Shown here: piece by piece, positions 24,289 through 44,870 of the stretch
How the letters are laid out: each line of letters begins with the position of its first letter
Position numbering within the stretch: the stretch's first letter is position 1
Source: a virus
Strand: one strand, 5' to 3'
Length of the DNA stretch: 44,870 bases
Virus genome (UHGV): UHGV-0384602
Notes under the pieces: model-generated
What the model was told of the DNA's origin: nothing
Seen by the model: only the letters and a program-made list of their open reading frames with translations
Databases searched by the model: none
Program-made: the position numbers and the translations under genes

Positions 24289-24364
24289 TGGTGCTGGTTA
24301 ACGGACTTGAACCGCTACCCATTCGCTTACAAGGCGACTGCTCTACCATTGGAGCTAAACCAGC
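24289..24364 (-). tRNA. tRNA, anticodon UGU (Thr) by manual folding
   Basis: 76-nt cloverleaf on the minus strand: perfect 7-bp acceptor stem GCTGGTT/AACCAGC, D-stem GCTC/GAGC, anticodon loop CTTGTAA, T-arm AGCGG-TTCAAGT-CCGTT, discriminator A plus CCA. Not run through tRNAscan. Confidence 0.45.
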
Positions 24365-24369
24365 ATATT

Positions 24370-24444
24370 TGGCGGGACAGCGTGGACTCGAACCACGATA
24401 AGAAGGTTAACAGCCTTCCGTAATGACCTTTATACGACTGACCC
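24370..24444 (-). tRNA. tRNA-like, anticodon GUU (Asn), imperfect
   Basis: 75-nt cloverleaf: anticodon stem-loop GGAAGG-CTGTTAA-CCTTC, T-arm CGTGG-TTCGAGT-CCACG, 3' CCA. One T-T mismatch in the acceptor stem and a 3-bp D-stem. May be degenerate. Confidence 0.35.
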
Positions 24445-32915: not shown

Positions 32916-32987
32916 GCGCGGCGTTACCGCATACCAATAACGCTTCACTCGAGGCGTTTTTCGTTATGTATAAATAAGGAGCACACC

Positions 32988-33152
32988 ATGCAATATGCCA
33001 TTGCAGGGTGGCCTGTTGCTGGCTGCCCTTCCGAATCTTTACTTGAACGAATCACCCGTAAATTACGTGACGGATGGAAACGCCTTATCGACATACTTAA
33101 TCAGCCAGGAGTCCCAAAAAATGGATCAAACACTTATGGCTATCCAGACTAA
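32988..33152 (+). CDS. cIII: CIII (FtsH/HflB inhibitor)
   Basis: 54 aa [54 protein letters not shown]; matches lambda CIII. Confidence 0.85.
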   Translation: MQYAIAGWPVAGCPSESLLERITRKLRDGWKRLIDILNQPGVPKNGSNTYGYPD

Positions 33153-39204: not shown

Positions 39205-39450
39205 TGATTTTATTTTGACTGATAGTGACCTGTTCGTTGCAACAAATTGATAAGCAATGCTTTTTTATAATGCCAACTTAGTATAAAAAAGCTGAACGAG
39301 AAACGTAAAATGATATAAATATCAATATATTAAATTAGATTTTGCATAAAAAACAGACTACAAAATACTGTAAAACACAACATATGCAGTCACTATGAAT
39401 CAACTACTTAGATGATATTAGTGACCTGTAACAGAGCATTAGCGCAAGGT
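39205..39450. other. attP: complete lambda attP (P-prime arm, core, P arm)
   Basis: Reverse complement of the lambda core GCTTTTTTATACTAA at 39278-39292. P-prime arm sequence next to int (..GATAGTGACCTGTTCGTTGCAACAAATTGATAAGCAATGC). P arm on the far side (..GCATAAAAAACAGACTACAAAATACTGTAAAACACAACATATGCAGTCACTATGAATCAACTACTTAGATG..). Both arms are phage-type. Confidence 0.85.
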
Positions 39451-39480
39451 GATTTTTTGTCCTCTTGCGCTAATTTTTTG
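39435..39480 (+). terminator. sib/tI-like retroregulator hairpin beyond attP
   Basis: TTAGCGCAAGG-TGATTTTTTGTCCT-CTTGCGCTAA followed by TTTTTT; resembles the lambda sib/tI hairpin in sequence and position. Confidence 0.5.
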
Positions 39481-39940
39481 TCAACTCACTGGGTTAGTTG
39501 AATTTACAACCATGCTCAGTATCTCGATAAGCGCAGGGAGATGATGCAGTGGTGGGCGGACTGGCTTGATGAAAGTGTGCTGTAATCCTCATATCCAACC
39601 TAAGAGATATGCACAATTTTGTGAATAAGATATTGAGAATTAGCAAAAGTTTTATTTTGCGTATCATCAATTCAGAATACAAAGTCACATGCTAATGTTC
39701 TGCATTGGTATCTTTTGCTTATCCATGTCTACATTATCGCCAAAATAATAGGTTTTGTCTATCAATTATTTGAATTACTTCCATGAAATTATAACGCACT
39801 TGTAATTTTTGATTATTTTTACCTCTCAAGTGTTTTGTTTCTTCTATCTCTTTGTATTTTTAGCGAAAGTATGCCATATTGCATTCTAATATAACGTGGC
39901 GTTGTTTCTGTTTAATGATTTAAATAGTTCAACATAATAT

Positions 39941-41116
39941 TTGCTAACAAATTATATCCAAGCAAATCATATGATATTATCATTACAATATATTAGAGGA
40001 ATAGCATCATTACTTGTTGTTTTATTCCACTTCAGATTCTTGCTAAATGAGCACTACTCTCAGAAAGATTTGGGTGACCTATTATTTGGGAATGGGCTGT
40101 CTGGAGTTGATATATTCTTCATATTAAGTGGATTTATCATCGTATACTCAACAAGAAAGAAGGAAGTTAATGATACTTTCTCATTCTCAATTAGAAGAAT
40201 ATTTAGAATATACCCATTACTAATCACATGCTGTTGCATGTATTACATAATAAACACTCAATTTCTAACCTATGCTACAGTTGAAAACTTTAGAACCTTA
40301 CTTATTTCCATCATTCCATTAAATATAAACTGGAATGAAGGCGCTCCATTCTTTGCCTATAATCTTTTGTACCCGGCCTGGACGATAACATATGAAATTG
40401 GTTTCTATGTTTTTTTCGGGGTATCAATGTCTATTTCGCATAAATACAGAACAATTATCTGTTCTGTTTTTATAATCATGGTGGTCTCATTTACACAATA
40501 CTATGTAAATGGAAATATATCATTTTCAGGTGATGTTAGTGCAGGGTTATTTACAGATAACTGGTTATTAGGATATACAAATGTTATTACATCTCCAATG
40601 ATGTATGAATTCGTTATTGGGATGTTTCTTTCTGAAATATTTACAAACATCAACGAAAGCAAAAGTATTAAAAGGATACTTTCAAAGTATTCGCTTCAAA
40701 TACTATGGATTTCATGTGGTATATCCATAATATTATTCATTATCCAGCGACCTTATGGGCATGGATTGAATGGATTTGGGACTATGGCGATGATACTTAT
40801 TGCATCATCATTAGTATATGAATACTGCAATATAACACCCAAAATAAAAATATTTAATTTCCTTGGTGAAATATCATATTCTTTATATCTAATTCACGCC
40901 GTGATACTTGCTTTGTTCTTCTATTATAAGGCAGACCTTGCTGAAATTGGCATAACTGGTGGATTTTCTGTGTTTTTTTCCTTGGTTATTATCTCAATAA
41001 CTGCATCATATCCAATATATATTCTCATTGAAAAGCCAATGATAAATATAGGTAAACGTTTAATTGACAAGAGAAATAAGAGCATTAACAAAAAAGAAAC
41101 CGAAATAACAGCGTGA
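39941..41116 (+). CDS. family-3 membrane acyltransferase (Oac/OafA-like; candidate O-antigen acetyltransferase)
   Basis: 391-aa polytopic membrane protein. N-terminal motif IRGIASLLVVLFHF (conserved Arg..His of acyltransferase family 3). Very AT-rich codon usage. Start may be the Met at 39971. Confidence 0.65.
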   Translation: MLTNYIQANHMILSLQYIRGIASLLVVLFHFRFLLNEHYSQKDLGDLLFGNGLSGVDIFFILSGFIIVYSTRKKEVNDTFSFSIRRIFRIYPLLITCCCMYYIINTQFLTYATVENFRTLLISIIPLNINWNEGAPFFAYNLLYPAWTITYEIGFYVFFGVSMSISHKYRTIICSVFIIMVVSFTQYYVNGNISFSGDVSAGLFTDNWLLGYTNVITSPMMYEFVIGMFLSEIFTNINESKSIKRILSKYSLQILWISCGISIILFIIQRPYGHGLNGFGTMAMILIASSLVYEYCNITPKIKIFNFLGEISYSLYLIHAVILALFFYYKADLAEIGITGGFSVFFSLVIISITASYPIYILIEKPMINIGKRLIDKRNKSINKKETEITA

Positions 41117-41153
41117 TAATGACAAAGTTAGTGCCGGGATACCCCGGCACTAT

Positions 41154-42491
41154 TTAATCTATTTCGTAAGTGACAGTGATTATCACTTCTGCATTATTAC
41201 CCAAAACATTTTGATATATATTCATATTACCTGATAATGTAGTTGCTCCAGTAAGAGTTATATAACTACTATTTGCATCAACCCTTGGAAGTAAAGCGGT
41301 AACTGCTGTTGTTAAATTATTATAGTAGCCTGTACTTCCAACATATGCAGCTTTATTGCTTGATACATATGGTAACCCTCCAATTCTGAAACCATCTCCT
41401 GACCCAATTAAAGTTATACCAAGGTGACATGTTGCCGTTATGATATTGCCACTCCTGACATAATTTCCTTTCTGCTGATAATATGTGGCATTACCACCTA
41501 CAGTCGGAATCCAAACTCCAGTTTCTATATCACCACATGACCAGTCTTCTGCTGTTGTTAGTTTTCCAGTAACAATAAATTTACTTCCACCACCAGAATT
41601 ATAAGGAACAAAAATTGGATTTATTCTTGCATAAGTGTTACCGGTCTGCTCATTAAGATCATTTCTATCAATAAGAACTTGACCATTTTCGAAGTTTGAA
41701 ATCTGGCAGTCTGTTACACTCCAGTCTCTTAACTTCACATCAGCATCCATGACACCAATAAGCTTACCAGCATTACCAATTTTTTCTTTATGCATATTTA
41801 CATACACATTTCTTACCGTAACAGACTGAGGGAACAGATAATTAGCAGGATTAGTTTTATCACTTAAAACAGATATTACCCAAGGTCTGTATTGAGTACT
41901 TACTTCACAATAAAATCCATCAATAAGCGTTCCAGATGCCGCTGGCCCAAGTAGTATTCCACCTGTAGAGTGATGCGCACTACCTCCAATTACTCTCCCC
42001 TTAACGCAGTTAATATAGGCAAAATATCCTAAATCTTGATTGTCATAGGCTGACATAGCACAGTCTCTAACTGTTACTCGAGAATTTCCTCCGTCATAAG
42101 CTGAGCCATCAGTTTTCTTACCAACTATTGATATAAAGTTACCAATAGCAACTCGACTATAAAAAGTTTTTTTATAACACCCCTCAATTAAAATATCCCA
42201 GTTTTCAAACTGAGCATATATATCATAAATGCTGGCATTCCCATAATCTATGAAATCACAATATCTTATTTTCGGCGTATAAACGGCACTTTTTATCTTT
42301 ATACCACCTAATGCTCTCTCCCCACCTGTGAATCTAATGCCAGTAACGGTGTAATCGCCTTGATAGAAATTATCTGCGGTAGGATTATTTTCGTCAGAAT
42401 CATCACCCAATATAATAGCAAATTCACTCCCTGAATAATTAATTGTCGCCCCCTTATTTGAATATATAGTTACAGGTCTTATAAACTCCAA
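41154..42491 (-). CDS. beta-helix (tailspike/depolymerase-like) protein, possibly truncated or frameshifted at its 5' end
   Basis: 445-codon ORF with repetitive G/N/T-rich beta-strand-like segments. No in-frame ATG: the frame opens after a TGA and the first usable start is TTG. A nearby ATG at 42574 is in another frame, separated by an A7 tract (42522-42528). Confidence 0.4.
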   Translation of the reverse strand: MEFIRPVTIYSNKGATINYSGSEFAIILGDDSDENNPTADNFYQGDYTVTGIRFTGGERALGGIKIKSAVYTPKIRYCDFIDYGNASIYDIYAQFENWDILIEGCYKKTFYSRVAIGNFISIVGKKTDGSAYDGGNSRVTVRDCAMSAYDNQDLGYFAYINCVKGRVIGGSAHHSTGGILLGPAASGTLIDGFYCEVSTQYRPWVISVLSDKTNPANYLFPQSVTVRNVYVNMHKEKIGNAGKLIGVMDADVKLRDWSVTDCQISNFENGQVLIDRNDLNEQTGNTYARINPIFVPYNSGGGSKFIVTGKLTTAEDWSCGDIETGVWIPTVGGNATYYQQKGNYVRSGNIITATCHLGITLIGSGDGFRIGGLPYVSSNKAAYVGSTGYYNNLTTAVTALLPRVDANSSYITLTGATTLSGNMNIYQNVLGNNAEVIITVTYEID

Positions 42492-42883
42492 AGAATTACT
42501 TATTAGATACTCTCCATAAGGAAAAAAATCTCAACTGGTGGTGAGTACTTTGGTCTGGAGTTTACGTAATTCATAATATTGATTACACCAACATCATAGA
42601 TAATCGCCACCTTCTGGCGAGGAGCTCCTGATGCAATTAATCGCCAGGCCTACGCCCATTATTCATGGGTAAATTTTGGACGGAGCCCCCAATTCCATCC
42701 TCAATTCTCCCTCGCACTGAGGAGTAGTAAGTGCAATTATTTAAAAAATCGCAAACAGAATATTATCATTTATTCTTGCATTCTGTTAATTAAAACCACA
42801 CATAAAAACGTTGATACTTGATAAGTAAGTAGAGTATTATTAATGGTTTTAATAACGAACCTTTTAATCATGAGAAGCCTCAA

Positions 42884-43909
42884 ATGACTAGTACCAATAA
42901 CATAACAAGAAAAAAAATGGATGGAGTAACAATCTTAAGATTTATAGCTGCTTTTTATGTGTTTATTTTTCACATTAACATGAGAGTCCCCGTTAATTTT
43001 GGAGAGCTTATTAATAAAACCATTAGCAATGGCGTCATTGGCATGAGTATTTTCTTCATGCTTTCTGGTTTTGTTTTGACTTATAATTACTATGGTTCCT
43101 TGTCAAACAATTACTTCAGGAAGCGAATAGCAAGAATATTTCCAGCCTATTTATTTTGTGGGCTTTTAACCCTCCCATTTTTGTTATCCAGCGATGCAAG
43201 CTTTTTAAAAATGATTGCAAGCATATTCTTGTTTGTTACTGGAATGCAATCATGGATTTATCAGACCTTCGATTTTTGGAATTTTAGCGGTACCTGGTCA
43301 ATATCAGTGGAATTGTTTTTTTATGCCCTGTTTCCATTTTTGATAAAAAACATCAACAAAAACAATGTAATTTATGTTTTACTTTTTTCATATTTATCTT
43401 CAGCATTATTAATCCCATTATCTGATATAATTCAGGGACCTGTAGTTTGGTCCGTATATTACGCAACTCCAATATACAGGTTACCAGAATTTGTGGTGGG
43501 CGTCTGTATCGCAATACTTTTTTTAAATGGCTATCGTGTTAACCATTATACATGGCTATTAAGCATTTTATTATTTCTGTATGCTACCACCCAGCAAAAC
43601 AATAACTCCATGGGGGTGAACTATCTCACAATTCCTGCGATATCAATTATGTTATTGCACCTGGCAAAAATCAACATCAAAAACAACATTGCAAACAGAG
43701 CGATCATTTACTTTGGAGATATAAGTTATTCGTTTTATTTGATGCAATTACCTATATTATATTACCTGGATCATAATAAAAACTCATTTATTCTTAACTA
43801 TGGTTTTTTTAGCTGGCTTGTACTTTTTGTTATTAATACTGCAATGGCATCATTATCTTATCACTTTCTGGAGAAGAACGATAAAATCAGAAAAATAATT
43901 ACATCCTGA
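42884..43909 (+). CDS. family-3 membrane acyltransferase (second copy, divergent)
   Basis: 341-aa polytopic membrane protein with ILRFIAAFYVFIFHIN (Arg..His motif), RIARIFPAY and FGDISYSFYLMQ blocks typical of acyltransferase family 3. AT-rich. Confidence 0.65.
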   Translation: MTSTNNITRKKMDGVTILRFIAAFYVFIFHINMRVPVNFGELINKTISNGVIGMSIFFMLSGFVLTYNYYGSLSNNYFRKRIARIFPAYLFCGLLTLPFLLSSDASFLKMIASIFLFVTGMQSWIYQTFDFWNFSGTWSISVELFFYALFPFLIKNINKNNVIYVLLFSYLSSALLIPLSDIIQGPVVWSVYYATPIYRLPEFVVGVCIAILFLNGYRVNHYTWLLSILLFLYATTQQNNNSMGVNYLTIPAISIMLLHLAKINIKNNIANRAIIYFGDISYSFYLMQLPILYYLDHNKNSFILNYGFFSWLVLFVINTAMASLSYHFLEKNDKIRKIITS

Positions 43910-43910
43910 T

Positions 43911-43936
43911 TTATTAGGGGGGTACCCCCCTAATAA
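43911..43936. terminator. perfect 26-bp palindrome (bidirectional terminator candidate)
   Basis: TTATTAGGGGGGTACCCCCCTAATAA is its own reverse complement. It lies between the convergent acyltransferase (+) and tail fibre assembly (-) genes. Confidence 0.5.
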
Positions 43937-43950
43937 TACACCACATAATT

Positions 43951-44361
43951 TCAACGTATTATCTCTGGCCTTTCTGGCCAGGTTATTTCTGGAATTAAGG
44001 ACAAATCCACTGACATTAAATTATTAACATATTCCTTCCATAACAAAAGATTGTTCTTGTTATTTTCACTTATAATACCGAGTAACAAATCTGACTGCCA
44101 GTTCATAATTAAACCATTAGCACTATCCAGCAGACACTGTCTTTCATTCTCTGCCTCACGAAGTAATTCATCATGTGTTTTTGGCGGCTGCGTAGGTGAC
44201 GAAAGCTTTCCCTTATCATAGAACCAACCAATTCTTACATTATCGGATACAGGTATAACTAACGCATTAGTTGGTTGCCAGGCACTCTCACCATCCCATA
44301 CCGCAATATTGGTAACAACACCATTTTCTATAACGGCATAGTTCATCACGCATACTCCCAA
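43951..44361 (-). CDS. tfa: tail fibre assembly protein (Tfa-like chaperone)
   Basis: 136-aa ORF immediately downstream of the fibre C-terminal region, overlapping its stop. ..MNYAVIENGVVTNIAVWDG.. resembles lambdoid/Mu-type Tfa N-termini (from memory). Confidence 0.6.
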   Translation of the reverse strand: MGVCVMNYAVIENGVVTNIAVWDGESAWQPTNALVIPVSDNVRIGWFYDKGKLSSPTQPPKTHDELLREAENERQCLLDSANGLIMNWQSDLLLGIISENNKNNLLLWKEYVNNLMSVDLSLIPEITWPERPEIIR

Positions 44362-44870
44362 ATGATTGCAATACCAGCCATTCCGCTACCTCCGGCACGC
44401 TGCTGCGTCGCTCCACCGTAGACACAGGCACCACCGCCTCCACCACCATGGCCATTAGCATTAATACCTTCGCCTACAATGGCTTGTGACCCAGCCCCCG
44501 CACCAAGGATTGAATCGCCGCCAGGCCCCCCCATCGCCAGACTGCCGGAATACCGAACGCCTGGTGAGCTATAACCGCTTCCAGACCCGATAATATTTGC
44601 ACCTGTAAATCCCGGCTCAGTATATGCTCCATACGGACCAACAACCCCTGGAGCAGTTCCTTCAGCAAGAACATTCCCACCAAGGCCACCTTTGGCAATT
44701 ATGGTATTGCCGAAAGAGGTTGTTCCCCCGGGAGCACCAACCGACGCACTTGCACCAGTGCCACCATATCCGATTGTCACAGTAGTTACGGTTGGATTAT
44801 CCACGCGAGCTTTAACATACTCCCCGGACATCCCCCCGCCACCACAAGCAGCATTATTGGGATAACCGAC
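44346..44870 (-). CDS. tail fibre protein, glycine-rich C-terminal part (partial; gene runs off window end)
   Basis: Frame is open from the window end (VGYPNNAACGGGGMSGEYVKARVDNPTV..) to the stop at 44346. Extremely Gly-rich (GGTGASASVGAPGG.., NGHGGGGGGACVYGG), typical of fibre distal domains. Followed by tfa. Confidence 0.55.
   Translation of the reverse strand, partial: VGYPNNAACGGGGMSGEYVKARVDNPTVTTVTIGYGGTGASASVGAPGGTTSFGNTIIAKGGLGGNVLAEGTAPGVVGPYGAYTEPGFTGANIIGSGSGYSSPGVRYSGSLAMGGPGGDSILGAGAGSQAIVGEGINANGHGGGGGGACVYGGATQQRAGGSGMAGIAIIWEYA

What the first reader, a model, noticed from the sequence alone, without database searches (positions are those of the whole stretch)
39500..43950. 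AT-rich accessory island with two family-3 acyltransferases flanking a beta-helix ORF: candidate serotype-conversion module
The lambda-like sequence ends at the sib hairpin; what follows is markedly AT-rich, unlike the rest of the genome. It encodes two divergent polytopic membrane proteins with the Arg..His acyltransferase-3 signature (39941-41116 and 42884-43909), convergent on a 445-codon beta-helix ORF (41154-42491). In P22- and Sf6-type phages the tailspike, O-antigen modification genes, attP and int sit in this same order, so this looks like a transplanted receptor-modification cassette. Two different O-acyltransferases in one phage is unusual.
Basis: partly seen in the sequence, partly recalled or inferred. 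Interest (0 to 1): 0.7.

Follow-up and report, generated by a model that had tools for sequence, protein, structure and literature searches.

The report
Two-part O-antigen acetylase island with tailspike fossil
The AT-rich end of this temperate E. coli phage carries two intact membrane sugar-acetylating genes, found only in serogroup O7 strains and probably used to alter the host's surface O-antigen. The "beta-helix gene" between them is a dead fragment of another phage's tailspike, dragged in when one of the two genes was captured.

Summary
Positions 39.5-43.95 kb have 33.5% GC against 49% for the rest of the window. The three ORFs lie at the stated coordinates. Both flanking proteins are full-length acyltransferase-3 (PF01757) hits that keep the R-X10-H and RXXR motifs.

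The island is two modules joined by illegitimate recombination.

- Module A (39500-42597) is one 3.1-kb block, 98.7% identical to the int-acyltransferase-tailspike end of a P22/Sf6-like prophage at argW in an O7 E. coli. It holds the last 27 codons of that integrase, AT1, and a 5'-truncated, frameshifted tailspike. ORF445 is residues 205-649 of a 649-aa tailspike and lacks the head-binding domain.
- Module B (42584 to the window end and beyond) is AT2, tfa and the tail-fibre tip. It moves as a unit among at least four prophage contexts.

AT2 diverges from ORF445 rather than converging on it. AT2 is under purifying selection (dN/dS about 0.1).

Both acyltransferases occur essentially only in genomes with the O7 O-antigen flippase: 56 of 64 listed carriers, against 0.97 expected by chance. 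The same island sits in the defective lambda-B prophage of E. coli B, REL606 and BL21.

It is most likely an O7 O-antigen acetylation and superinfection-exclusion cassette. This is a new member of a known kind, and its function has not been tested.

The parts
39278..39292 (-). Lambda-type attP common core (GCTTTTTTATACTAA on the - strand). Prophage copies of the island join bacterial DNA here.
   Evidence: Sequence read. Identity to the prophage right ends in REL606 and PRO_A-1407 starts at 39274. Lambda int and xis lie just upstream.
39431..39481 (+). sib/tI hairpin. This is the end of the lambda-like sequence.
   Evidence: Inverted repeat I2. Lambda match at 97.8% identity ends at 39483.
39500..42597 (.). 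Module A: a contiguous 3.1-kb fragment of a P22/Sf6-like podovirus (int 3' end, AT1, 3' part of the tailspike).
   Evidence: Single blastn block, 98.7% identity, 39 mismatches and 2 gaps, to L011 5871-8970. L011 is an argW prophage of the O7 strain 2018-05-5CC.
39502..39585 (+). Remnant of a P4/IntS-type integrase gene (last 27 codons plus stop).
   Evidence: tblastn gives 100% identity to residues 359-385 of the 385-aa integrase of L003. DNA is 98.3% identical to L003 and lies inside the L011 block. PGAP annotates a pseudogene here.
39971..41116 (+). AT1: AT3-only membrane O-acyltransferase, 381 aa from ATG 39971 (an upstream in-frame TTG at 39941 gives 391 aa).
   Evidence: PF01757 E 1e-30 covering profile positions 2-325 of 326. 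phrog_3333 O-acetyltransferase E 2.7e-72. R9-X10-H20, FFILSG, R76-X-X-R79 and WTITYE are kept, and these columns are invariant or nearly so in 51 homologues. Against L011: 5 synonymous and 3 non-synonymous changes.
41129..41152 (.). G+C-rich hairpin (10-bp stem) between the converging AT1 and tailspike remnant. Likely a bidirectional terminator.
   Evidence: Terminator-like site reported on both strands. Nine such sites were found in the region against 2.1 expected.
41154..42597 (-). Tailspike gene remnant. ORF445 (41154-42491) equals residues 205-649 of a 649-aa tailspike. A further ~35 codons (42492-42597) are out of frame because of a 1-nt deletion at 42521.
   Evidence: 99.1% aa identity to residues 205-649 of the L011 tailspike. 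tblastn of P0002 shows the frame switch. The deletion is located. The full-length relative P0002 has PF09008 Head_binding plus PF12708. AlphaFold model and Foldseek tailspike hits. TTG start with no Shine-Dalgarno sequence.
42587..42597 (.). Recombination joint between modules A and B: 11-nt microhomology (CCAACATCATA on the + strand).
   Evidence: Three-way comparison of the window, L011 and L009/L008. Homology to L011 ends at 42597 and homology to L008/L009/L012 starts at 42584-42585.
42598..42688 (-). Remnant of a helix-turn-helix gene that precedes AT2 wherever module B occurs.
   Evidence: PGAP pseudogene 'helix-turn-helix domain-containing protein, internal stop, missing N-terminus' in IAI39, 8178 and T309.Ta3 at the matching position. 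REL606 has a pseudogene call at the same place.
42884..43909 (+). AT2: AT3-only membrane O-acyltransferase, 341 aa.
   Evidence: PF01757 E 4.3e-27. phrog_3333 E 1.3e-40. R19-X10-H30, FFMLSG, R81-X-X-R84 and WSISVE; R19, H30, R81 and E143 are invariant in 51 homologues. AlphaFold pLDDT 95.2 with about ten long helices. dN/dS 0.10 against T309.Ta3 (23 synonymous, 9 non-synonymous).
43911..43936 (.). Perfect 26-nt palindrome (TTATTAGGGGGGT/ACCCCCCTAATAA) between the stops of AT2 and tfa. Likely a bidirectional terminator.
   Evidence: Self-match on the opposite strand in blastn. Inverted repeat I1.
43951..44361 (-). Tail-fibre assembly protein (tfa), part of module B.
   Evidence: PF02413 Caudo_TAP E 2.8e-23. 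PHROG tail-fibre assembly families. Co-travels with AT2.
44346..44870 (-). 3' part of the tail-fibre gene (glycine-rich C-terminal region). It continues at window 1-~314 because the window is a circular permutation.
   Evidence: phrog_863 and phrog_6202 tail-fibre hits. PGAP annotates a 282-aa glycine-rich protein in L002. Window position 1 follows 44870 after a 10-nt gap in L002, and homology to IAI39 continues to window 138.

Best explanation
The island is a lysogenic-conversion region built from two receptor-modification modules. Both face the phage attachment site of a lambda-int, Brunovirus-like temperate myovirus of E. coli O7.

Module B (AT2, tfa and the tail-fibre tip) sits in the slot where relatives such as SEN34 carry their own acetyltransferase. 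It moves as a unit between prophages with different tails.

Module A was captured from a P22/Sf6-like podovirus resident at argW in O7 strains. An illegitimate crossover through an 11-nt microhomology brought in AT1, the last 27 codons of the donor integrase, and a promoter-less, head-binding-domain-less, frameshifted tailspike fragment. ORF445 is that fossil, not a working gene.

Inferred mechanism. In the lysogen each acyltransferase is a roughly 10-helix inner-membrane AT3-only enzyme. It takes the acyl group of cytoplasmic acetyl-CoA through its pore (Arg-X10-His on TMH1, RXXR on TMH3) and places it on a hydroxyl of the O7 O-antigen on the periplasmic side. This changes the epitope and the receptor seen by O-antigen-binding phages. 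AT2 would act against fibres like the phage's own. AT1 would act against the donor podovirus's tailspike. In O-antigen-less E. coli B the enzymes would have no such substrate.

Shown: anatomy, origins, joints, family membership, conserved catalytic motifs, purifying selection on AT2, restriction to O7 genomes.
Inferred: expression in the lysogen, acetyl donor, O7 as acceptor, phage exclusion.
For: - Composition and ORFs.
- AT3 membership: PF01757 hits over the full profile; PHROG O-acetyltransferase; motifs present and invariant in family alignments, the motifs being those named as defining in PMC9833829; AT2 model with pLDDT 95.2 and about ten helices.
- Module A origin: one 3100-bp block 98.7% identical to L011, where IntS, AT1 and a 649-aa tailspike lie next to tRNA-Arg. 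The same architecture with a different acyltransferase occurs in L003.
- ORF445 equals residues 205-649 of that tailspike, with an upstream frameshift and a tailspike fold.
- Module B: 97-99.7% identical from 42584 through tfa into the fibre tip in prophages at ssrA (IAI39), near pphA (8178) and at tRNA-Pro (T309.Ta3). SEN34 has an O-acetyltransferase in the same slot.
- The joint is an 11-nt microhomology.
- Selection: AT2 dN/dS 0.10; AT1 0.16 from few changes.
- O7 link: AT2 in 66 and AT1 in 51 of 5426 genomes; O7 wzx in 95. Of 64 listed AT2 carriers, 56 are among the 82 listed O7 genomes. Expected 55.2 if all carriers are O7 and 0.97 if independent. Of 40 listed AT1 carriers, 39 are O7.
- Hairpins after both genes fit self-contained moron units.
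Against: - No experiment: no LPS chemistry, no expression data.
- I found no report of O-acetylated O7 antigen.
- Promoter-like sites are no more frequent than in shuffled sequence (26 found against 28.2 expected). Neither gene has a clear Shine-Dalgarno sequence.
- The O7 association could reflect only the host range of the phage and shared ancestry. About half the carriers are E. coli B laboratory derivatives.
- Neither enzyme is close to a characterised O-antigen acetylase. The best phage relatives are 38% (AT1) and 28-32% (AT2) identical and annotated only generically. There were no NCBIfam hits.
- AT3 proteins also acylate other glycans.
- The AT1 selection test rests on 8 substitutions.
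Confidence: 0.6

Rival explanations
1. The two acyltransferases are active but act on another envelope glycan, such as LPS core, enterobacterial common antigen, colanic acid, a capsule or periplasmic glucans, rather than the O7 O-antigen. The O7 link would then be a by-product of phage host range.
For: AT3 proteins have many acceptor types (reviewed in PMC9558356, listed). Homologues carry only generic names such as 'OafA/YrhL' and 'ExoZ'. No published O7 acetylation was found. The island is kept almost unchanged (6 SNPs) in E. coli B, which makes no O-antigen.
Against: Both genes sit exactly where serotype-converting phages keep O-antigen modifiers. One is beside an O-antigen-type tailspike and the other beside a fibre tip. 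AT2 is restricted to O7 across four prophage contexts and several host sources. This is hard to explain for a glycan common to all E. coli. Retention in E. coli B is too recent to show selection.
Confidence: 0.2
2. The island is inert cargo. The genes are silent or inactive leftovers of recombination between prophages and give the lysogen nothing.
For: One of the three ORFs is demonstrably a dead fragment. The island also holds integrase and HTH gene remnants. No convincing promoter or ribosome-binding site was found. It persists in a defective prophage of a rough laboratory strain.
Against: Both acyltransferase ORFs are full length with every family-invariant residue intact. AT2 shows 23 synonymous against 9 non-synonymous changes (dN/dS 0.10) between prophages of different type. 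Module B has been moved intact at least four times. Each gene is followed by its own hairpin.
Confidence: 0.12
3. ORF445 is a working protein. A truncated, virion-independent tailspike would be made from the internal TTG (or read through from upstream). It would act as a soluble O-antigen glycanase, chain-length modifier or decoy alongside the two acetylases, making a three-gene cassette.
For: The 445-codon frame is open. It retains most of the beta-helix and the C-terminal domain and models confidently. Differences from the intact orthologue are mostly synonymous (19 against 5). An identical protein is recorded 200 times.
Against: The start is a TTG that encodes Leu205 inside the intact gene, with no Shine-Dalgarno sequence. 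The gene's own 5' 612 nt, promoter and head-binding domain are missing, and the 35 codons upstream are frameshifted. The synonymous excess is expected from divergence while both copies were still in podoviruses. At 1.3% divergence there has been no time for decay. ORF445 itself has no Pfam or PHROG hit.
Confidence: 0.05

Closest known systems
Shigella phage Sf6 Oac and the related Sf101 OacB (serotype-converting AT3-only O-antigen acetyltransferases)
   Same: Phage-borne, AT3-only (no SGNH domain) and about 330-390 aa. They carry the R-X10-H and RXXR motifs. The gene lies between the integrase/att end and a converging tailspike. Module A reproduces exactly this int, acetylase, tailspike order, and its donor is an Sf6-like prophage at argW whose tailspike N-terminus matches Sf6 gene 14 (E 3.5e-73).
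   Different: Only family-level similarity. No Shigella phage appeared among tblastn hits at E <= 1e-5. The host serogroup is E. coli O7, not S. flexneri. Here the cassette has been moved into a myovirus and its tailspike partner is broken. Activity is untested.
Salmonella phage SEN34 (Brunovirus) O-acetyltransferase SEN34_29
   Same: Same virion type as the window (80.7% DNA identity over the structural genes). Same slot: tail fibre, tfa, converging O-acetyltransferase, then integrase.
   Different: Not orthologous. Only 29-31% identity over short stretches to AT1 or AT2. SEN34 has one acetyltransferase and a different integrase.
Defective lambda-B prophage of E. coli B (REL606, BL21)
   Same: Carries this very island with 6 SNPs over 5.6 kb, at att-lambda next to ybhB/bioA. 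A 12.1-kb lambda-B prophage is described in PMC4395058.
   Different: The E. coli B copy is a deletion remnant lacking most phage genes, in a strain without O-antigen (IS1 in wbbD, PMC8594841). The window is a complete 44.9-kb phage genome, one SNP from the prophage of the O7 isolate PRO_A-1407-6W-A.
P22 gtrABC / F2 GtrC (OafB) and OafA of Salmonella
   Same: Prophage-associated O-antigen modification next to att, int and tailspike. OafA and OafB share the AT3 domain and its motifs.
   Different: No GtrA or GtrB. No fused SGNH domain (Pfam shows PF01757 only). There are no GATC sites at all upstream of either gene, so the Dam/OxyR phase switch of gtr operons is not present.
P22-family tailspikes (Sf6 gp14, HK620, P22 gp9)
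   Same: ORF445's parent protein has the head-binding domain, a beta-helix and a C-terminal domain. ORF445 models as a parallel beta-helix and matches these structures.
   Different: The receptor-binding part has no sequence match in the PDB. The nearest phage relative is the St11Ph5 tailspike at 56% identity. ORF445 lacks the first 204 residues.

Membership tests
Acyltransferase-3 (AT3, PF01757) membrane acyltransferases | Profile match above the curated threshold over the whole domain | tested here: met
   AT1 scores 107.4 bits and AT2 95.5 bits against a cutoff of 31. They cover profile positions 2-325 and 3-315 of 326.
Acyltransferase-3 (AT3, PF01757) membrane acyltransferases | Conserved R-X10-H motif in TMH1 (defining per PMC9833829) | tested here: met
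   AT1 has R9...H20 (numbering from ATG 39971). AT2 has R19...H30. The His is invariant in both 51-sequence alignments. The Arg is invariant in the AT2 alignment and nearly invariant in the AT1 alignment.
Acyltransferase-3 (AT3, PF01757) membrane acyltransferases | RXXR motif at the cytoplasmic end of TMH3 (PMC9833829) | tested here: met
   AT1 has R76-I-F-R79 and AT2 has R81-I-A-R84. Both AT1 arginines and AT2 R81 are invariant; AT2 R84 is nearly invariant.
Acyltransferase-3 (AT3, PF01757) membrane acyltransferases | Polytopic fold of about 10 TM helices related to the TmAT superfamily | tested here: inconclusive
   The AT2 model has pLDDT 95.2 and pTM 0.92, is all-helical and has about ten long helices. 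No PDB match reached E <= 0.001. The best TM-scores are to HGSNAT (0.43) and GWT1 (0.34), which PMC12423673 groups with AT3. AT1 was not modelled.
Acyltransferase-3 (AT3, PF01757) membrane acyltransferases | Acyl transfer from acyl-CoA to an extracytoplasmic glycan | not testable with these tools
   Needs biochemistry or LPS chemistry.
Phage serotype-converting O-antigen acetyltransferase (Oac type) | Encoded on a temperate phage next to att/int and the receptor-binding protein gene | tested here: met
   AT1 lies between the integrase remnant/attP and the tailspike remnant. AT2 lies next to tfa and the tail fibre.
Phage serotype-converting O-antigen acetyltransferase (Oac type) | AT3-only architecture (no SGNH domain) | tested here: met
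   PF01757 is the only Pfam hit. Lengths are 381 and 341 aa. By contrast, the 666-aa AT3+SGNH protein occupies the same slot in L003.
Phage serotype-converting O-antigen acetyltransferase (Oac type) | Close sequence relationship to a characterised Oac, OacB or OacC | tested here: not met
   tblastn against 50,697 phage records gave no Shigella phage hit at E <= 1e-5. The best identities were 38% (AT1) and 28-32% (AT2). Only family-level PHROG matches were found.
Phage serotype-converting O-antigen acetyltransferase (Oac type) | Lysogeny adds O-acetyl groups to the O-antigen and changes serotype or phage sensitivity | not testable with these tools
   Only circumstantial evidence: restriction to O7 genomes.
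P22-like tailspike protein | N-terminal head-binding domain (PF09008) | tested here: not met
   Absent from ORF445 (no Pfam hit). Present in the full-length relatives P0002 and the L011 tailspike. ORF445 starts at residue 205.
P22-like tailspike protein | Right-handed parallel beta-helix receptor-binding domain | tested here: met
   AlphaFold pLDDT 87.3, all-beta. Foldseek top hits are Det7, HK620, Sf6, CBA120 and P22 tailspikes, with E down to 6e-10.
P22-like tailspike protein | Intact gene with its own translation start | tested here: not met
   The gene is 5'-truncated at 42597, has a 1-nt deletion at 42521, and the ORF's TTG is an internal Leu codon without a Shine-Dalgarno sequence.
Gtr-type glucosylation cassette / AT3-SGNH (OafA, OafB) | GtrA/GtrB partners or a fused SGNH domain; Dam-dependent GATC switch upstream | tested here: not met
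   No such ORFs or domains. No GATC sites in the 385 and 392 bp upstream regions.

The most novel reading that the evidence does not exclude
A resident prophage has stolen a rival phage's receptor-masking gene. By capturing AT1 from an O7-specific podovirus, with the rival's broken tailspike as the scar, the myovirus gives its lysogen two non-redundant O7 O-antigen acetylations. One blocks fibres like its own and the other blocks the podovirus's tailspike. These would define unrecognised O7 subtypes, present in about two-thirds of sequenced O7 genomes.
Probability: 0.3. Interest if true: 0.55.

Novelty: new member of a known kind. Interest (0 to 1): 0.38.

Why it matters
If the two enzymes do acetylate the O7 antigen, most O7 E. 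coli would display a phage-modified O-antigen that standard O7 typing and the published O7 structure do not capture. This group includes extraintestinal pathogens such as IAI39 and CE10 (O7:K1). That bears on vaccine and antibody targets and on the choice of therapeutic phages.

The locus is also an unusually clean, datable record of how receptor-modification genes hop between unrelated phage types. The donor, the recipient and both joints are all identified.

It also explains three long-standing "hypothetical" or generic genes in the lambda-B prophage of the workhorse strains BL21 and REL606. Otherwise it is an ordinary example of a well-known class of phage morons.

Tried and rejected
- NCBIfam gave no hit for AT1, AT2, ORF445 or the full-length tailspike.
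- A PDB sequence search gave nothing for either acyltransferase. It matched only the N-terminal 184 residues of the full-length tailspike.
- Foldseek of the AT2 model against the PDB gave no significant hit, with only weak TM-scores to HGSNAT and GWT1.
- The promoter scan was uninformative in this AT-rich DNA (26 sites against 28.2 expected).
- A gtr-like Dam/OxyR phase switch is rejected because there are no upstream GATC sites. No tandem repeats suggest slipped-strand switching, apart from an A8 run in AT2's first codons.
- Rfam finds nothing in the island.
- Recent duplication as the source of the two acyltransferases is rejected. They share 31% identity over only 83 residues.
- Orthology of AT2 or AT1 with the SEN34 acetyltransferase is rejected.
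- The Kapi1 lead (an O-antigen-modifying argW podovirus, PMC8787464) did not connect. Kapi1 was not among the phage hits of ORF445, AT1 or AT2.
- Literature searches for the RefSeq protein accessions and for O7 O-acetylation found nothing relevant.
- dN/dS on ORF445 cannot distinguish a fossil from a working gene at 1.3% divergence.

Full report
**1. Observation.**
GC falls from 0.49 (positions 1-39290) to 0.335 across 39502-43950 (AT1 0.311, AT2 0.320, tailspike remnant 0.357).

Upstream lie lambda-type xis and int (PF09003 plus PF00589), the attP core at 39278-39292 and the sib/tI hairpin at 39431-39481. Identity to phage lambda (97.8%) stops at 39483.

Both flanking proteins match PF01757 Acyl_transf_3 end to end (E 1e-30 and 4.3e-27). 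Both also match PHROG 3333, "O-acetyltransferase" (E 2.7e-72 and 1.3e-40).

One detail is wrong. AT1 converges on ORF445, but AT2 diverges from it and converges on the tail-fibre assembly gene at 43951-44361.

**2. What the window is.**
The structural half is 98% identical to Escherichia phages of the vB_EcoM-611R5 type and 81% identical to Salmonella phage SEN34 (Brunovirus), a lambdoid myovirus.

The window is a circular permutation of a prophage found at att-lambda, next to ybhB/bioA. It differs by a single SNP across the island (39274-44870) from the prophage of the O7 isolate PRO_A-1407-6W-A. The window end and start are 10 nt apart in that prophage.

The island itself differs by 6 SNPs from the right end of the defective lambda-B prophage of E. 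coli B, REL606 and BL21 (PMC4395058). No record in the phage collection holds the island.

**3. ORF445 is a tailspike fossil.**
ORF445 has no Pfam or PHROG hit of its own. Its nearest full-length relative, P0002 (648 aa, 82% identity), carries PF09008 Head_binding and PF12708. It sits in a P22-like prophage in the order tailspike, converging AT3-SGNH acyltransferase, P4-type integrase, host DNA.

tblastn shows that P0002 residues 193-648 align to window 42527-41160. Residues 170-194 align in another frame, and nothing aligns further upstream.

The decisive locus is L011, from strain 2018-05-5CC, which carries O7 wzx. Beside tRNA-Arg it has IntS, an AT1 orthologue and a 649-aa "phage head-binding domain-containing protein". 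Window 39500-42597 is one uninterrupted block 98.7% identical to it, over 3100 bp with 39 mismatches and 2 single-base gaps.

ORF445 is residues 205-649 of that tailspike (99.1% aa identity). Its TTG "start" is Leu205 of the intact protein and has no Shine-Dalgarno sequence. A 1-nt deletion in a T-run at 42521 frameshifts the 35 codons that remain upstream.

The fold claim holds. The AlphaFold model has pLDDT 87.3 and is all-beta. All 31 Foldseek PDB hits with E <= 0.001 are phage tailspike, tail-fibre or depolymerase structures, including Det7 gp208 (E 6e-10), HK620, CBA120 TSP2 and P22; Sf6 follows just above that cut-off.

Without the head-binding domain, a promoter or a start codon, this cannot be a virion protein of a baseplate-bearing myovirus. 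The excess of synonymous changes against L011 (19 to 5) reflects divergence while both copies were functional. It says nothing about present function.

**4. Two modules and their joints.**
Module A runs from 39500 to 42597. It starts inside the donor integrase gene: 39502-39582 is 100% identical at protein level to the last 27 residues of the L003 integrase. It ends inside the tailspike gene.

Module B starts at 42584. It is 97-99.7% identical from there through AT2, tfa and the C-terminal ~220 codons of the tail fibre (to window 138). The matching prophages sit at three other sites:
- ssrA in IAI39 (O7:K1), with a Mu/P2-like baseplate;
- tRNA-Pro next to yejM in T309.Ta3, with the same tail type;
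- near pphA in the mouse isolate 8178, with the same Brunovirus-like tail as the window.

In all three, AT2 is the last gene before the attachment site, with no AT1 and no tailspike.

The A/B joint is an 11-nt microhomology at 42587-42597. It is shared by the tailspike gene and a helix-turn-helix pseudogene that precedes AT2 everywhere.

SEN34 carries an unrelated O-acetyltransferase in the same slot. L003 holds a different acyltransferase (AT3+SGNH, 666 aa) between the same conserved integrase and tailspike flanks. Both slots are therefore cassette positions.

AT1 and AT2 share only 31% identity over 83 residues. The "unusual" pair is thus two acquisitions, not a duplication.

**5. Are the acyltransferases functional?**
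Both keep the R-X10-H (TMH1) and RXXR (TMH3) motifs that PMC9833829 names as defining and essential. They also keep the FFxxSG and W(S/T)xxxE motifs. In 51-sequence alignments of each protein's homologues these residues are invariant or nearly so.

The AT2 model has pLDDT 95.2 with about ten long helices. No significant PDB match exists for it to hit, and the best TM-scores are to HGSNAT and GWT1.

AT2 shows 23 synonymous against 9 non-synonymous differences between the window and T309.Ta3 (dN/dS 0.10). AT1 shows 5 against 3 relative to L011.

Each gene is followed by a strong hairpin, at 41129-41152 and 43911-43936.

Their homologues are AT3-only proteins spread through the Enterobacterales and Pseudomonas. 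None is characterised.

**6. Link to serogroup O7.**
Among 5426 complete E. coli genomes, AT2 occurs in 66 and AT1 in 51 (50 carry the whole island). The O7 flippase gene wzx, taken from REL606, occurs in 95.

Combining the listed rows, 56 of 64 visible AT2 carriers are among the 82 visible O7 genomes. The expectation is 55.2 if every carrier is O7 and 0.97 under independence (hypergeometric P about 5e-104). Of 40 visible AT1 carriers, 39 are O7.

Carriers include E. coli B (historically O7, now rough through IS1 in wbbD; PMC8594841), O7:K1 ExPEC strains, and poultry, pig, horse, mouse, seawater and human isolates.

Caveats: about half the carriers are laboratory derivatives of E. coli B, the test is not corrected for phylogeny, and host range alone could produce the pattern. 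Even so, AT2 reaches O7 hosts in four different prophage contexts.

**7. Mechanism (inferred).**
Established AT3 biology is that acetyl-CoA is presented through a transmembrane pore and the acyl group is passed to a periplasm-facing sugar (PMC9833829, PMC7448272). On that basis the likeliest reading is that each enzyme O-acetylates the O7 repeat unit in the lysogen. This would alter the epitope and the receptor used by O-antigen-binding phages.

Each gene sits beside a receptor-binding gene: AT2 beside its own fibre tip, AT1 beside the donor's tailspike. This fits the usual logic of self-exclusion. It suggests that the captured AT1 adds protection against the podovirus.

Nothing here shows expression, the acceptor or exclusion. 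I found no report of acetylated O7 antigen.

**8. Rivals.**
- Another glycan is the acceptor (0.2).
- The island is inert cargo (0.12).
- ORF445 is a working free glycanase or decoy (0.05).

Evidence for and against each is given in the structured fields.

**9. Novelty and score.**
Phage-borne AT3 O-antigen acetylases next to att, int and receptor-binding genes are textbook (Sf6 Oac). This is a new, uncharacterised member, or rather two members.

What is new here:
- resolving the island into two modules with donor, recipient and joints identified;
- recognising the beta-helix ORF as a tailspike fossil;
- the near-exclusive O7 association;
- recognising that BL21 and REL606 carry the same cassette.

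Interest is moderate to low, at 0.38.

Noticed in passing
window 39502-39585: The last 27 codons of a P4/IntS-type integrase lie stranded immediately after the lambda sib hairpin. They are 100% identical at protein level to the integrase of Sf6-like argW prophages.
   Followed up: yes
window 42598-42688 (PGAP pseudogene calls reach 42503/42545): A remnant of a helix-turn-helix gene (internal stop, N-terminus missing) precedes AT2 in every prophage that carries module B. I did not examine what it once regulated.
   Followed up: partly
window 42910-42917: An A8 run lies within the first 11 codons of AT2, directly before a second in-frame ATG (42917). PGAP starts the gene at 42884 in some genomes and at 42917 in REL606, although the DNA is identical there. 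The true start, and any slippage, are unknown.
   Followed up: partly
window 44870 / window 1: The window is a circular permutation cut inside the tail-fibre gene. In the matching prophage (L002), window end and window start are separated by 10 nt that the window lacks.
   Followed up: partly
L003 12008-14008: In a related Sf6-like prophage a 666-aa AT3+SGNH acyltransferase fills the same slot, between a 98%-identical integrase 3' end and an 81%-identical tailspike. This is a clean cassette swap between conserved flanks.
   Followed up: partly
E. coli genomes NC_012971.2, NC_012892.2, NZ_CP010585.1 and other (DE3) derivatives: BL21(DE3)-type strains have O7 wzx but gave no AT2 hit, unlike BL21 and REL606. 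Making the DE3 lysogen apparently removed or replaced the island-bearing end of the lambda-B prophage.
   Followed up: no
NZ_CP151934.1 (strain 8178), NZ_CM133351.1, NZ_CM133354.1, NZ_CM132924.1: These mouse-derived O7 isolates carry module B at two places in one chromosome.
   Followed up: no
Salmonella phages SI8, Si3, SF6 (KFo-2019), SI5, SF10 (e.g. MK972696.1 12366-13893): These phages have a lambda-like attP/sib segment (about 86% identity to window 39360-39575). It is followed about 160 bp later by an AT3 gene 28.6% identical to AT1. The same moron slot is filled independently.
   Followed up: no
Escherichia phage St11Ph5 (NC_070873.1 61692-63017): The only sequenced phages with a tailspike receptor domain related to ORF445 (56% identity) are St11Ph5 and the near-identical vB_EcoP_ShWW44, 72-kb phages. 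St11Ph5 was isolated on E. coli 4s.
   Followed up: no
window 24292-24444 (-) and 32975-33033 (+): There are two adjacent tRNA genes and a lambda cIII thermoregulator element (88.5 bits) elsewhere in the phage genome.
   Followed up: no
window 39502-43950: GATC is strongly depleted in the island: 3 sites (0.67 per kb) against 3.19 per kb for the whole window. Low GC alone would not fully account for this.
   Followed up: no
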